From: a virus
Length of the DNA: 64,000 bases
Reading direction: 5' to 3' (one strand)
IMG/VR virus record: IMGVR_UViG_3300044701_002494
Location: 1-64,000 of that record
Below the pieces are notes generated by a model. It was not told the DNA's origin and ran no database searches. It saw only the letters and a program-made list of their open reading frames with translations. The position numbers and the translations under genes were made by a program. Positions 902 through 43,721 of the stretch are shown here, in pieces; within the stretch, counting starts at the first letter, position 1; the number at the start of each line of letters is the position of its first letter.

Positions 902-982
902 AAGAGACCTCCAGGTTTGTGCATCGTTGAGAGGCATAGGAGGGGTAGGTCTTACACGGAGTTTGGACCCCCGCCGCCTATG
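902..982 (-). ncRNA. Putative structured leader / small RNA upstream of tRNA-Arg
   Basis: GC-rich non-coding ~80 nt between promoter and tRNA, with CCTCC/GGAGG, AGACCT/AGGTCT and GGGGT-CCAA-ACTCC pairings. Confidence 0.35.
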
Positions 983-11201: not shown

Positions 11202-11221
11202 TTTTACTTTGATTTTTTAGT

Positions 11222-11255
11222 TATTTATAAAAAAAGAGGGTAGTTATACCCTCTT
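11222..11255 (-). terminator. Intrinsic terminator merged with a TATAAATA late promoter
   Basis: GAGGGTA-TAAC-TACCCTC-T run continuing into TATAAATA; same arrangement at 13707-13739, 20100-20137 and 41705-41742. Confidence 0.75.
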
Positions 11256-13689: not shown

Positions 13690-13727
13690 CTTACAGATTT
13701 TTTAGGTATTTATAAAAAAAGAGGGGA

Positions 13728-13880
13728 TCAAGTCCCCTCATTACCTAACCATTCTTTTTTATAATCATAATCACCAAACAGAAATTCATCACTTTCTGCT
13801 GCTTCTTTGTATGCGTTCAGGATTTCCTGTTCGCACCATTCATCATAGTTGGAATCCTGAGAAAGTATCTTTGGTAACAT
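13728..13880 (-). CDS. 50-aa acidic peptide overlapping the nrdB 3' end (MLPKILSQDSNYDEWCEQEILNAYKEAAESDEFLFGDYDY...)
   Basis: Hand translation; ends at the terminator. Confidence 0.55.
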   Translation of the reverse strand: MLPKILSQDSNYDEWCEQEILNAYKEAAESDEFLFGDYDYKKEWLGNEGT

Positions 13881-39943: not shown

Positions 39944-40645
39944 CTAGTCGTGCTCACCCATTGCTTTTTGCTTACGGAGTTTCTTAGGATTCTTGGTTAC
40001 ACCACCAGAACCCTCTGAAGGATAATCGTGGTCTTGACGAGTACCTACACCATGAGCAGCACCTGCTCTTGCTCTTTCTCTATCGTCAGCAGTCAAACCC
40101 TTTCTTGGTGAATCATCTGGAGTTCTATTAGCAGGATTAGTTCTACTCTTCATTGCCTTAAGAAAAGGCTTTCTCTTTGCAGTCATCTTGGTTTTTGATG
40201 CTGCACTGTATGCCTTCGGTGTAGCACCATATGAACCTTCTGCTTCATCTAGAACTTCTTCAACAATACTCTGCTTCCACTCTTCACTCATATTCGCCAT
40301 AATAGCAAGAGCTGCCTTATTGGTGTCTGCGTAACCTTCGGCAACTAGGTGCTCCAAAATATGCTCAAACATATCTTTTCCACCCTTTTGCGGAACTTTT
40401 CCCCTATCTCTGAGTCTTTCACGACCACCTTCGGATCTCTCTTCTTTAGAAGCACTTGGACTAAACTTACCTAGCATTAATCTGCCATGTGTTTCAGCCT
40501 TAGTTTCTGGTCTTCCTCTTTTCTTATCCGCTTCACGCTGTTGAGATTCCCGAGAAAGAGCACTCAAACTAGTTCTTCTACCTTCATCAAGTTGATAAAC
40601 CTGATTATATGCTTCTTGTAAATTGCGAATTTCTTTTGCGTCCAT
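39944..40645 (-). CDS. Putative internal head protein with LQEAYNQVY leader and HLVAEGYADTNKAALAIMANMSEEW module
   Basis: Module shared with 11279..12238. Confidence 0.7.
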   Translation of the reverse strand: MDAKEIRNLQEAYNQVYQLDEGRRTSLSALSRESQQREADKKRGRPETKAETHGRLMLGKFSPSASKEERSEGGRERLRDRGKVPQKGGKDMFEHILEHLVAEGYADTNKAALAIMANMSEEWKQSIVEEVLDEAEGSYGATPKAYSAASKTKMTAKRKPFLKAMKSRTNPANRTPDDSPRKGLTADDRERARAGAAHGVGTRQDHDYPSEGSGGVTKNPKKLRKQKAMGEHD

Positions 40646-40672: not shown

Positions 40673-41683
40673 TTATGCATAATCCCCCTCTGTTGGAGAT
40701 CCATATTTCTTCAACCAGATCTTATTTCCAAGTTCTTTTGCTTTTGCAGGATCCTTAGTTCTTAGTTCTTGATATCTTTTAATATCAGGATCAACTGATT
40801 TAGTTTTTGTTGCAACTGTTTTTGAAGTATCTTTTATAACTGGATTTGGTTTAACTTTTTTTACAGTATCTTTTGTAACTGTATTTTGTGTAGGTTTTTT
40901 CGCTTTTTGAGGGGTTGGAAGTTTAGGTGCAGGTAAAGCAACGTCTCCACGCTTCATTGCAGCAGTTAAAGTTCCATCAGCAGTTGGTCTTGGTGCCATA
41001 ACAGCAGCTGCAGCGCCAGCAGGAGTAAGATTTCTTAGAGTAGCGATAGTAGATGCAGTCTTGGCAACAGGTTCTGCAATTTTTCTTCCTTGGTCAGCAA
41101 ATCTTGCAAGTTCTGGAAATTTATCAAGATTCGGACCAGTTGCTCTAAGTGTAGCACCAGGTCTATATGGATTTGGTTTAGTTGTAGTTGGTTTTGCTGC
41201 TGGAGAAGAAACTTTTGTAACTTTTGGTGTTGGTGGTTTTGGTGCCTTTACTTCTACTGGTTTATTGGGATAAAGCATTTTTCTCAAACCCTGTGCAAAT
41301 ACTTGCGTGGGATGTGGTTTATCAAGACCAAGAATATTAGCAATACCACGAGCAACAACTTCTTGCGGATGCATTCCTTGCTCCACAACATAAGTCATAA
41401 TGTAATTTGACTCTTCTACTGTACATCCCTCATTTAAAAGAAAATTAAAAACTTCATCATAAACATCTTCAATAACAACTTCACCCTCTGGTTCATAATG
41501 TGCTTTTTGAATATTTGCACTTTTAGTTGGTTTTAAAGGAACTACTTTTCCCCCACCATACTTCGGATTACTGTCTATTATTTTTTGAAGGGTTTCATCA
41601 GGATTATCAGTAGGAACTCCCATTCTTTGTTCCAAAATTATATTATATGCATCTCGTAACGATTTATATTCTTTAAAATTCAT
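40673..41683 (-). CDS. Low-complexity basic putative internal head protein
   Basis: Late promoter 41705-41712; LRDAY leader, HYEPEGE, DVYDEVFNFLLNEG module. Confidence 0.7.
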   Translation of the reverse strand: MNFKEYKSLRDAYNIILEQRMGVPTDNPDETLQKIIDSNPKYGGGKVVPLKPTKSANIQKAHYEPEGEVVIEDVYDEVFNFLLNEGCTVEESNYIMTYVVEQGMHPQEVVARGIANILGLDKPHPTQVFAQGLRKMLYPNKPVEVKAPKPPTPKVTKVSSPAAKPTTTKPNPYRPGATLRATGPNLDKFPELARFADQGRKIAEPVAKTASTIATLRNLTPAGAAAAVMAPRPTADGTLTAAMKRGDVALPAPKLPTPQKAKKPTQNTVTKDTVKKVKPNPVIKDTSKTVATKTKSVDPDIKRYQELRTKDPAKAKELGNKIWLKKYGSPTEGDYA

Positions 41684-41699
41684 TTCTAAAAAAATCTTT

Positions 41700-41843
41700 T
41701 TAGGTATTTATAAAAAAAGAAGCACCTCCAGAGAGGCGCTTCTTGAGTGCTTGGCGACGTGCCTTTGCTTGTCGGAGTGCTTGCGGTTTTAGTTTCCGCT
41801 TCTGCTCCTTTTTAGAGTGGTGTTGCCAATTTGGAAGTTTCAT
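41700..41843 (-). CDS. 47-aa highly basic peptide (MKLPNWQHHSKKEQKRKLKPQALRQAKARRQALKKRLSGGASFFINT) with terminator inside the CDS
   Basis: Hand translation; own promoter TTGACT(41893-41888)-N17-TAATCT. Confidence 0.7.
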   Translation of the reverse strand: MKLPNWQHHSKKEQKRKLKPQALRQAKARRQALKKRLSGGASFFINT

Positions 41844-42005
41844 TAGTCTTGTGTTGATGGGGACAGATTACTATCTATATTTGCAGAAGTCAAGGAGTCC
41901 AGTTGAGAAAGTGTCCCTGTTCTTATTTTTTTCATAATATCACTTCTTCTTTTTCTTTCATTATCACTTATATTCAATTTTGTTCCAACTTCTAGTCTAA
42001 ACTAT

Positions 42006-43721
42006 TTATATCGGTTTAATTCTAGAAAATCCTTTTATTTTTTCAAATGAAATAACATTATCAAATTTATCCTGTAAGTCTGTTTTATGAGAAATTACAA
42101 AAACATTTGTGTCTTTTACAACATACTTAATAATTTTTAAAAACTCATCAGCACCAAATCCATCAAGAGAAGAGTCAAAAACTTCATCAAATAAAAGAAT
42201 ATTACAATTTACAGAATTTTTGACTCTTGCCACTTCACGCCAGGCAAACAACAGGGCAAGGTCAATTCTTGCCTTTTCACCTTCAGAAAATGAAGAGTAT
42301 GAGAAATCTTCGTGAATAGGTGATTTAACATTCTCATTGAATTCAGAATCCAATTCAAAATTGATATAAAAGTCCATCATCTGAAGATAACGATTCACCT
42401 GCTGATTTATGAAAGGAAGATACTTTTTAATAATCTTCGTTTTTACACCATCATCCTTGAGTAATGAATAGGCAAAATCATAATAAACGATTTCTTCTTT
42501 TTTCTTTGAAAGGTCTTCAAATGTTTTTTGGAGATTTTCTTTAAATTCTTCTAGTTTCTCATGCTCAGTATTTCTGTTTTTAAGTTTCTCGGTAATTGTT
42601 TGAATTTCAGTTTCAAGATCTCGGATTTGTCTCTGGTTGAGGGAAATCCTAGTATTGTTTTGAGAAATCTCATGGTTGAGTTTTGTAATCTCCTTAGATA
42701 GAGCAATGAATTGACGCTCTCGTTCTTGTTCTATCTTTATAGTCTCTTCCAGGTCTTCATAACCCTTCTTGAGTTCCTTTGCTTTATTTTGAGCGTCTGT
42801 AATTCTATTTAACCGAAACTCTTCCTCAATTGTCTGAGTACAAGTAGGGCACACCGTATTTTCAGTGAAAAACTTATGCTCTTTCGTAATGACAGATACT
42901 TTCTGGGAGATTTTACCTCTGAGATTGTTTAGTTTTACTAACTTTTCACTGGCACCAACAACTTCTTCCTGCTCCTTTGTATATTGAACAATACCCTCTT
43001 CAGTCTTAGCATTTTCAATCATATAAATGCCAACTTCTTTGTCTAAATTGGCAATCTTTTCTTTATTGGCATTTATATTGGCATTTCCACGATTCTCAAG
43101 TTCTTCGATGAAGTTTTTCTGCATCTTCATCTTCTCTTTCAAATTCTCCTTACGCAACTCAAGAGATTTCACTTGGTCTTTCTGTGTGCGAATTCTATCC
43201 TTGATGAGATTATTCATCGCAGAGAAAATACGAATATCCAAAAGATCTTCAATAACTTCCCGACGATGTGCCGTTGGAAGTTGCATAAAAGGCACAAAGG
43301 TACTACTACCCAGAATAACAATCTGAGTAAAAGACTTATAATTTACCTTGAGAATGTTCTCCTCTAGAATTCTCTGATTGGCACGGTCGTCTGCTTCCTT
43401 GTGCAGAGGACTGCCATTTACCTCAATATCAAATACATTTGGTTTAATTCCACGACGGACAAGATAATCTCTACTATTCGTTGAGAATTCAATTTCAACT
43501 AAACAATCTTTTTCGTTTGTAGTATTGACTAATTGTGGTTTATTGATTTTCCGAAACGGTTTATTGAAAAGAGCAAAGGTAAGAGCATCCAATACCGTTG
43601 ACTTTCCAGCACCGTTTGTACCGATGATTAGATTGGTATGATTTTTTTCAAAGTCAATCTCAGTAAATTGATTCCCCGATGAAAGGAAATTCTTGTATCT
43701 AATCTTGTGAAATACTAGCAT
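42006..43721 (-). CDS. gp46: Recombination endonuclease ATPase subunit (T4 gp46, SbcC/Rad50-like)
   Basis: GTNGAGKST, CPTC zinc hook, FSEGE, FDEVFDSSLD. Confidence 0.95.
   Translation of the reverse strand: MLVFHKIRYKNFLSSGNQFTEIDFEKNHTNLIIGTNGAGKSTVLDALTFALFNKPFRKINKPQLVNTTNEKDCLVEIEFSTNSRDYLVRRGIKPNVFDIEVNGSPLHKEADDRANQRILEENILKVNYKSFTQIVILGSSTFVPFMQLPTAHRREVIEDLLDIRIFSAMNNLIKDRIRTQKDQVKSLELRKENLKEKMKMQKNFIEELENRGNANINANKEKIANLDKEVGIYMIENAKTEEGIVQYTKEQEEVVGASEKLVKLNNLRGKISQKVSVITKEHKFFTENTVCPTCTQTIEEEFRLNRITDAQNKAKELKKGYEDLEETIKIEQERERQFIALSKEITKLNHEISQNNTRISLNQRQIRDLETEIQTITEKLKNRNTEHEKLEEFKENLQKTFEDLSKKKEEIVYYDFAYSLLKDDGVKTKIIKKYLPFINQQVNRYLQMMDFYINFELDSEFNENVKSPIHEDFSYSSFSEGEKARIDLALLFAWREVARVKNSVNCNILLFDEVFDSSLDGFGADEFLKIIKYVVKDTNVFVISHKTDLQDKFDNVISFEKIKGFSRIKPI

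What the first reader, a model, noticed from the sequence alone, without database searches (positions are those of the whole stretch)
41700..41893. Basic micro-ORF whose terminator precedes its stop codon: a nonstop mRNA with ArfA/BrfA-like logic
Seen: a promoter (TTGACT-N17-TAATCT) drives a K/R/Q-rich 47-codon ORF. The strong hairpin GAAGCGCCTC-TCTG-GAGGTGCTTC plus T7 (41742-41712) lies inside the reading frame, and TAA comes ~10 nt after the U-tract. Established: arfA and brfA are made from stop-less mRNAs, so tmRNA tags and destroys the product unless trans-translation is saturated; these rescue factors are small and basic. Inference: a phage ribosome-rescue or ribosome-binding factor that accumulates only when host trans-translation fails, complementing the tRNA attenuator as a second translation-stress sensor.
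Basis: partly seen in the sequence, partly recalled or inferred. Interest (0 to 1): 0.7.

Follow-up and report, generated by a model that had tools for sequence, protein, structure and literature searches.

The report
Cyanophage micro-gene ending inside its terminator
A 37-residue, very basic protein conserved in hundreds of cyanobacterial T4-like viruses is encoded by a gene whose last conserved codons form its own transcription terminator. Terminated messages therefore carry no stop codon, as in the bacterial ribosome-rescue genes arfA and brfA, but its function is unknown.

Summary
The 47-codon ORF (41843-41700, minus strand) runs through a 12-bp hairpin and U-tract (41744-41712), and its TAA lies about 10 nt past the predicted RNA 3' end.

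The ORF is a real gene: phrog_3309, 469 short protein clusters, 574+ viral loci. Residues 4-37 are almost invariant, with pN/pS 0.12.

The tail is a by-product of signals. The hairpin's right arm gives GGAS, the T-run gives FF, and a TATAAATA late promoter gives INT.

Of 197 unique loci, 129 keep a hairpin plus U-rich tract inside the ORF with the stop beyond it. A second clade uses an unrelated hairpin. In two loci a tRNA-Leu gene starts inside codon 37.

About a quarter of loci have ordinary stops, and some marine phages fuse the peptide to a secreted protein. Stop-less expression is therefore common but not obligatory.

No similarity to ArfA, BrfA or any cellular family was found, so a rescue function is untested. 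The proposed promoter lies in a homing-endonuclease remnant and is unproven.

First readers of this scan noted the same layout in two other genomes.

The parts
42006..43721 (-). gp46 / SbcC-like recombination endonuclease subunit; the upstream gene of the transcription unit
   Evidence: Pfam AAA_23, SMC_N. Same position as gp46 in S-SRM01 and P-HM2.
41846..41977 (-). 3' remnant of a GIY-YIG/NUMOD3 homing-endonuclease gene; its TAA overlaps the micro-ORF ATG (TAATG)
   Evidence: BLASTP to the intact 218-aa gene of L042: 69% identity over 36 aa, E 1e-13. Pfam GIY-YIG and NUMOD3 on L042:668-1321.
41865..41893 (-).
   Evidence: Read. Not listed by the promoter scan. Lies within the endonuclease remnant.
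41733..41843 (-). Conserved core of the micro-protein, codons 1-37 (phrog_3309)
   Evidence: phrog_3309, E 2.3e-15. Residues 4-37 nearly invariant. pN/pS 0.12 for codons 4-33. AF2: residues 1-20 coil, helix 21-45, pLDDT 81.
41700..41732 (-). Unselected tail (SGGASFFINT) plus TAA, read from the loop, right arm, T-run and late promoter
   Evidence: Tails differ in length, frame and sequence among relatives.
41717..41744 (-). Intrinsic-terminator hairpin; the left arm is codons 34-37 (K K R L)
   Evidence: Terminator scan. Compensatory changes at stem positions 6-9 and 11 across 33 unique hairpins. Fold z-score -3.1.
41712..41721 (-). U-rich tract TTCTTTTTTT; predicted RNA 3' end at about 41715-41712
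   Evidence: Sequence. The 3' end position is inferred from the general rule of 7-9 nt after the GC-rich stem.
41697..41712 (-). T4-type late promoter TATAAATA plus CCTAAAAA leader of the next gene
   Evidence: Motif found 3 times in the window against 0.12 expected. It follows the terminator in most relatives, ahead of different genes.
40673..41683 (-). Downstream late gene (336 aa, Pro/Thr/Ala-rich); it has its own promoter and does not depend on read-through
   Evidence: ORF list. No Pfam or PHROG match.

Best explanation
This is a real, translated micro-gene of T4-like cyanophages. It encodes a 37-residue, strongly basic protein (net charge about +13): an N-terminal PNWQHHSKK motif followed by an amphipathic helix.

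The gene sits at the 3' end of the middle-expressed gp46 unit. Its last four conserved codons (AAG AAG CGC CTC) are the left arm of that unit's intrinsic terminator, and a late promoter for the next gene follows immediately.

Transcripts that end at the terminator stop at about codon 43-44 and contain no stop codon. Ribosomes on them must be resolved by the host's non-stop machinery: tmRNA tagging and degradation, or ArfB-type release. Only read-through transcripts give a normally terminated 47-aa product.

The yield of free peptide is therefore coupled to terminator read-through and to how busy trans-translation is. This is the same gene logic as brfA and arfA.

What is shown: the gene is real, the terminator is embedded and selected, and the tail is unselected.

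What is inferred: the RNA 3' end, the stop-less translation and the tmRNA coupling.

The molecular target is unknown. An RNA or ribosome partner is only a guess from composition.
For: - Coding and selected: 469 short clusters and 574+ viral loci. Non-consensus fraction by codon position is 0.08, 0.03 and 0.26, and pN/pS is 0.12. A Shine-Dalgarno AAGGAGG is present in P-HM2.
- Transcribed in culture: the P-HM2 homologue PHM2_134 is classed 'Mid (B)' (PMC5082946, supplement 3).
- Terminator selected: the hairpin starts exactly at codon 34 in about 60 loci, and the arms covary, including a K35N change compensated in the right arm.
- Tail dictated by signals: right arm, T-run and TATAAATA.
- Distribution: 129 of 197 unique loci have a hairpin plus U-rich tract inside the ORF with the stop beyond.
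- Independent routes to the same outcome: an unrelated embedded terminator in the P-HM2-like clade, and tRNA-Leu beginning at the third base of codon 37 in L136 and L145.
- In-frame stops before the predicted 3' end occur in 1-2 of about 95 loci, against 10-20 in the other frames (Fisher p about 1e-3).
- Other genes in the window stop before their terminators.
- Experimental precedent for this layout: brfA (PMC6881298).
Against: - No transcript 3' end, SsrA tagging or protein was measured. The only RNA data were low-share assembled contigs.
- 45 of 197 loci have ordinary stops without a hairpin, 11 have a stop before or inside a hairpin, and marine phages such as S-RIM8, S-RIM2 and Syn9 fuse the core to phrog_767. 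Stop-less synthesis is therefore not required for function.
- In the window-type hairpin the arms cannot contain a stop codon, so an open frame is partly forced. Only the short loop could hold one.
- The frame test is not corrected for shared descent.
- A ribosome translating into the left arm could suppress termination.
- The loci sampled are the best 80 hits of each of three queries, not a random sample.
Confidence: 0.5

Rival explanations
1. Ordinary small phage protein. The tail after residue 37 is dispensable, so genome compaction has pulled the operon terminator into the 3' end of the ORF. The functional product comes from read-through or longer transcripts. Stop-less messages are a tolerated cost with no regulatory role.
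For: Many homologues have conventional stops (45 of 197) or are fused to a longer protein, with the core equally conserved. The window-type hairpin arms cannot encode a stop, so the open frame is partly forced. Terminator followed by TATAAATA is the usual boundary in this phage.
Against: A single loop mutation gives a stop, as in L049, yet this is nearly absent. Three unrelated 3'-end-forming elements abut the core. Other genes in the window keep their stops upstream of their terminators.
Confidence: 0.35
2. One reading: an ArfA/BrfA-like, release-factor-dependent ribosome-rescue factor, or another ribosome-binding factor, that accumulates when host trans-translation is saturated during infection.
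For: The gene layout is identical to brfA. The protein is small and very basic, with a helical K/R-rich C-terminal half. ArfA/BrfA are restricted to proteobacteria and the B. subtilis group, so cyanobacteria are not reported to have one (PMC11633108). BrfA itself has no similarity to ArfA, so lack of homology is not decisive.
Against: No sequence or profile similarity to ArfA, BrfA, ArfB, SmpB or any solved or cellular protein. At 37 aa it is shorter than the active forms of ArfA (~55 aa) and BrfA (~62 aa). Fused and normally terminated homologues exist. Basic composition alone is not specific.
Confidence: 0.08
3. A cis-acting leader ORF of the pyrBI type. Translation through the left arm masks the terminator, so read-through into downstream genes reports how closely ribosomes follow RNA polymerase.
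For: The ORF runs through the terminator, and a ribosome on codons 34-37 would prevent hairpin formation (sequence).
Against: The downstream gene has its own TATAAATA promoter right after the terminator, and this gene differs between phages. Leader peptides are not conserved over 34 residues under pN/pS 0.12. The core is equally conserved where there is no terminator.
Confidence: 0.04
4. Not a gene: a conserved non-coding RNA or DNA element, for example a homing-endonuclease target, that happens to be open.
For: About 100 nt are conserved at 75-82% nucleotide identity in different genomic contexts. A homing endonuclease sits next to it in relatives. Synonymous variation is lower in codons 19-33.
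Against: Variation is concentrated at third codon positions, the ATG and frame are kept in about 200 unique loci, and there is no Rfam hit.
Confidence: 0.02

Closest known systems
brfA (yqkK) of Bacillus subtilis
   Same: A small basic protein gene with a typical rho-independent terminator inside the coding region. The last codons and the stop are encoded by the gene but not by the mRNA (PMC6881298).
   Different: No sequence similarity. 37-43 aa against about 62 aa. A phage gene rather than a host gene. RF2 recruitment and SsrA control are shown for BrfA and untested here. The stop-less layout is not universal in this family.
arfA of Escherichia coli and other proteobacteria (PF03889)
   Same: The product is made from a stop-less mRNA, and the read-through tail is hydrophobic and dispensable.
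   Different: No Pfam or NCBIfam match. E. coli arfA uses RNase III cleavage. ArfA's KGKGS motif is absent (from memory, not tested).
phrog_3309 / T4-like gene cluster 587 (e.g. PHM2_134 of P-HM2)
   Same: This is the family the ORF belongs to (E 2.3e-15). It has the same position after gp46 in P-HM2 and S-SRM01.
   Different: The family is annotated only as hypothetical. The gene is not annotated at all in S-SRM01 or S-RSM4. I found no paper that describes it or its embedded terminator.
pyrBI-type leader peptide attenuators
   Same: A short ORF reads through an intrinsic terminator.
   Different: Here the peptide sequence itself is under strong purifying selection, and the downstream gene has its own promoter.

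Membership tests
phrog_3309 (cyanomyophage micro-protein) | Profile match over the whole 42-position model | tested here: met
   E 2.3e-15, residues 1-38 on profile positions 1-39 of 42.
ArfA (PF03889) | Sequence or profile similarity to ArfA | tested here: not met
   No Pfam hit at E<=0.1 and no NCBIfam hit at E<=10. An HMM search of 1.84 billion representatives found only short proteins, nearly all under 125 aa, and no link to a cellular family.
ArfA/BrfA-type rescue factors | A 3'-end-forming element inside the ORF, so that the mRNA lacks the stop codon | tested here: met
   At sequence level only: the hairpin and U-tract occupy codons 34-44 and TAA lies 9 nt beyond the T-run. Seen in 129 of 197 loci. 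RNA ends were not measured.
ArfA/BrfA-type rescue factors | Product tagged by tmRNA and accumulating only when trans-translation fails | not testable with these tools
   Needs infected cells or a heterologous ssrA mutant.
ArfA/BrfA-type rescue factors | [quoted passage not shown] | not tested
The basic helix at residues 21-45 is compatible but not specific.
Intrinsic (rho-independent) terminator | GC-rich stem-loop followed by a U-tract, kept by compensatory change | tested here: met
   12 pairs with 6 GC, plus T7. Double changes at stem positions 6-9 and 11. A second hairpin type also covaries.
pyrBI-type attenuator leader | Downstream gene expression depends on read-through, and the peptide sequence is unconstrained | tested here: not met
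   TATAAATA lies directly after the terminator. pN/pS is 0.12.
Sigma-70-type early promoter | -35 and -10 hexamers conserved independently of coding | tested here: inconclusive
   The hexamers are present but lie in a homing-endonuclease remnant. The -10 matches at 3 of 6 positions.

The most novel reading that the evidence does not exclude
Cyanomyophages carry a trans-translation-gated ribosome factor. It is a 37-aa basic peptide made only from stop-less messages (terminator- or RNase P-truncated). It escapes SsrA tagging when infection floods the cell with broken mRNAs. It then acts on stalled ribosomes, either releasing them as an ArfA/BrfA analogue in a phylum that lacks one, or blocking tmRNA-SmpB.
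Probability: 0.1. Interest if true: 0.9.

Novelty: new variant of a known kind. Interest (0 to 1): 0.6.

Why it matters
Genes deliberately made from stop-less mRNA are so far known for bacterial back-up rescue factors (arfA, brfA). Finding the same architecture, kept by covariation, in a different and far more conserved micro-protein across hundreds of cyanophages would mean one of two things. Either viruses of the ocean's main primary producers read or manipulate the host's ribosome-rescue state, or phages tolerate stop-less synthesis of a core protein. Either case is directly testable in cultured systems (P-HM2/MED4, S-RSM4, S-SRM01). The work also adds a widespread gene that several reference genomes do not annotate.

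Tried and rejected
- Public RNA runs: only three metatranscriptomes held small shares, and only as assembled contigs. One contig covers 41758-41966 and another 41481-41695, but contigs cannot show RNA ends, so nothing can be said about termination.
- Rfam, at gathering and E-value thresholds: no RNA family at the locus.
- PDB sequence search, protein atlas, NCBIfam and Pfam: no informative relative.
- Genome-contig scan for a host homologue: seven hits, on contigs of single-cell or metagenome-assembled genomes of unrelated taxa. I read these as phage DNA and did not inspect them. There is no evidence of a cellular gene.
- Tat-signal idea: RRQALK resembles RRxFLK, and in the fused forms the core precedes a signal peptide. 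It was dropped because the RR pair is not conserved in divergent members.
- Lambda-N-like idea (an arginine-rich peptide binding its own hairpin): dropped because the loops are not conserved.
- phrog_767 in the window's own genome: none found.
- Two related-loci runs failed because the queries were too short. They were replaced by alignment queries.

Full report
**What is in the window.**
All features are on the minus strand.
- A 47-codon ORF runs from ATG 41843 to TAA 41702-41700.
- Codons 34-37 (AAG AAG CGC CTC, 41744-41733) pair with GAGGTGCTTCTT (41728-41717) across the loop TCTG. The T-run continues to 41712.
- The terminator scan lists this as a 12-pair hairpin with 6 GC pairs.
- TATAAATA follows at 41712-41705, and the next gene starts at 41683.
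- With the usual 7-9 nt between a GC-rich stem and the RNA end, a terminated transcript would end at about 41715-41712, in codon 43-44. That is 10-13 nt before the stop.
- The window is a T4-like cyanomyophage. gp46/SbcC lies upstream, and the closest cultured relative is the freshwater Synechococcus phage S-SRM01.

**It is a real gene.**
- About 100 nt (41850-41739) are 75-82% identical in 123 cyanophage records.
- The protein search found 469 clusters of 25-83 aa, and a scan of viral contigs found 574 or more loci.
- Residues 4-37 are almost invariant, while everything after L37 varies.
- Across 66 unique coding segments, the non-consensus fraction by codon position is 0.08, 0.03 and 0.26. 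pN/pS is 0.12 for codons 4-33.
- The ORF belongs to phrog_3309, of unknown function.
- In P-HM2 the homologue is PHM2_134 (T4-GC 587). It has an AAGGAGG Shine-Dalgarno and an ATG overlapping the gp46 stop. It was classed as a middle transcript, 'Mid (B)', in infection transcriptomes (PMC5082946, supplement 3).
- AlphaFold2 predicts a coil for residues 1-20 and a helix for 21-45, with mean pLDDT 81.
- An HMM search of 1.84 billion representatives returned 142 proteins, almost all under 125 aa and none assignable to a cellular family.
- There is no match in Pfam, NCBIfam or PDB.
- Seven hits in prokaryote assemblies lie on contigs of single-cell or metagenome-assembled genomes, several from unrelated taxa. 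I read them as phage DNA but did not inspect them.

**The terminator is selected and the tail is not.**
- In about 60 of 72 close loci the hairpin starts exactly at codon 34.
- Across 33 unique anchored hairpins, stem positions 6-9 and 11 show compensatory changes. One is a K35N substitution (AAG to AAC) matched by C to G in the right arm.
- The tail residues follow from the signals. The right arm gives G(G/D)AS, the T-run gives F or FF, and ATAAATA gives INI or INT. The stop is often the TAA inside TATAAATA.
- Tail length shifts between 44, 45, 47 and 48 aa as the T-run length changes.
- The motif TATAAATA plus CTAAAAA occurs three times in the window against 0.12 expected. In relatives it precedes many different genes.
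- The hairpin therefore marks the boundary between the middle gp46 unit and variable late genes.
- Of about ten strong terminators in the window, only this one has a conserved ORF through it. gp23 stops before its terminator.

**Family-wide survey.** I examined 197 unique loci.

| Class | Loci |
|---|---|
| Hairpin plus U-rich tract inside the ORF, stop beyond the predicted 3' end | 129 |
| Hairpin inside the ORF with a U-poor tail | 7 |
| In-frame stop before or inside a hairpin (e.g. L049, TGA in the loop) | 11 |
| tRNA-Leu gene starts in the ORF or at its stop | 3 |
| Long fusions | 2 |
| Ordinary stop, no adjacent hairpin | 45 |

- The marine P-HM2-like clade uses a different hairpin placed after KKRHM: GACCTCGCC, loop AAAA, GGCGGGGTT, then CTTTTGTA and TAA or TGA. 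Its arms covary and the tail peptides change with them.
- In L136 and L145, base 1 of tRNA-Leu(UAA) is the third base of codon 37, and the ORF's TAG lies in the tRNA D-loop. RNase P processing would therefore also leave a stop-less message. In S-RSM4 the TAG abuts the tRNA.
- Between codon 37 and the predicted 3' end, an in-frame stop occurs in 1-2 of about 95 unique regions, against 10-13 and 13-20 in the other two frames (Fisher p about 1e-3).
- Two caveats apply to this frame test. It is not corrected for shared descent, and in the window-type hairpin the arms cannot encode a stop.
- The sampled loci are the best hits of three queries, not a random sample.

**Counter-evidence.**
- Roughly a quarter of sampled loci terminate normally. 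Some overlap the next gene's ATG.
- 49 protein clusters are 84 aa or longer.
- In S-RIM8, S-RIM2 and relatives the core is fused in frame to phrog_767. The record labels this 'cAMP phosphodiesterase', but it carries a signal peptide, a His-rich stretch and a glycine-zipper domain, PF05433. Syn9 gp5 carries the core and the signal peptide but lacks the glycine-zipper end.
- The core stays conserved in all of these, so the peptide functions when made conventionally. Stop-less synthesis is frequent and probably favoured, but not obligatory.

**The promoter.**
- TTGACT-N17-TAATCT is present, but it lies in the last ~36 codons of a decayed GIY-YIG/NUMOD3 homing-endonuclease gene.
- The intact 218-aa gene sits between gp46 and the micro-ORF in L042, and its stop overlaps the ATG just as gp46's does elsewhere.
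- Conservation of the hexamers in window-type loci is thus explained by descent.
- In most relatives the ORF has no promoter of its own and is coupled to gp46 or gp32 through TAATG or TGATG.

**Comparison with known systems.**
- The layout is that of brfA, where an internal rho-independent terminator gives a non-stop mRNA. The product is SsrA-tagged and accumulates only without trans-translation (PMC6881298).
- ArfA works in the same way.
- ArfA/BrfA are restricted to some proteobacteria and the B. subtilis group (PMC11633108).
- Membership in either family is not met by sequence. The shared feature is gene logic, not homology.
- A pyrBI-type attenuator is unlikely, because the downstream gene has its own promoter and the peptide is under strong selection.

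**Limits.**
- No RNA ends, tagging or binding could be measured.
- The only RNA runs were low-share contigs.
- I found no paper describing this gene or its architecture.
- First readers of this scan noted the same layout in two other genomes; neither note had been followed up.

**Verdict.**
- The stop-less gene logic is well supported at sequence level and plausibly selected.
- A ribosome-rescue function remains speculation.
- The promoter is unproven.

Noticed in passing
window 41846-41977 (-); L042:668-1324: A GIY-YIG/NUMOD3 homing endonuclease sits between gp46 and the micro-ORF in relatives (218 aa in L042). The window keeps only its last ~36 codons. The endonuclease ends ...SQAQD with TAATG, the same as the gp46 C-terminus it displaced.
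   Followed up: yes
window 42003-42010 (-): A perfect TATAAATA overlaps the gp46 stop codon. It may be a late promoter left from the endonuclease insertion, and could also drive the micro-ORF late in infection.
   Followed up: no
L136:1501-1694 and L145:1501-1695; L003 (S-RSM4):1492-1702: tRNA-Leu(UAA) starts at the third base of codon 37 of the micro-ORF, and the ORF's stop is the TAG in the tRNA D-loop. In S-RSM4 the stop abuts the tRNA. The micro-ORF is not annotated in S-RSM4 or S-SRM01.
   Followed up: partly
L002 (S-RIM8):1508-2017, and S-RIM2, S-WAM2 and others: The gene annotated 'cAMP phosphodiesterase' (phrog_767) has no such Pfam domain. It carries a signal peptide, a His-rich region and a glycine-zipper 2TM domain (PF05433), with the micro-protein fused to its N-terminus. 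The label looks wrong.
   Followed up: partly
window 907-943 (-): Rfam abiF RNA motif (RF03085, 50 bits against a gathering score of 37), next to the tRNA cluster at 1-902.
   Followed up: no
window 41745-41789 (-), codons 19-33: Synonymous sites vary less here than in codons 4-18, hinting at an extra nucleotide-level constraint such as RNA structure or an endonuclease target.
   Followed up: no
window 40673-41683 (-) and 39944-40645 (-); L042:1488-3662: The late genes downstream of the cassette share N-terminal M..KE[YI]..L..AYN motifs. The 336-aa protein shares its C-terminal end (DPDI.RYQELR.KDPAKAKELG.KIWLKKYG) with a 724-aa Pro/Thr/Ala-rich protein in L042. This looks like a length-variable late protein family with no Pfam or PHROG match.
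   Followed up: no
window 13721-13739 (-) and 11234-11255 (-): Two more terminators are followed directly by the TATAAATA plus CTAAAAA late-promoter motif (13699-13714 and 11214-11229), the same middle/late boundary layout. At 13739 a 55-aa ORF has its stop inside the hairpin.
   Followed up: no
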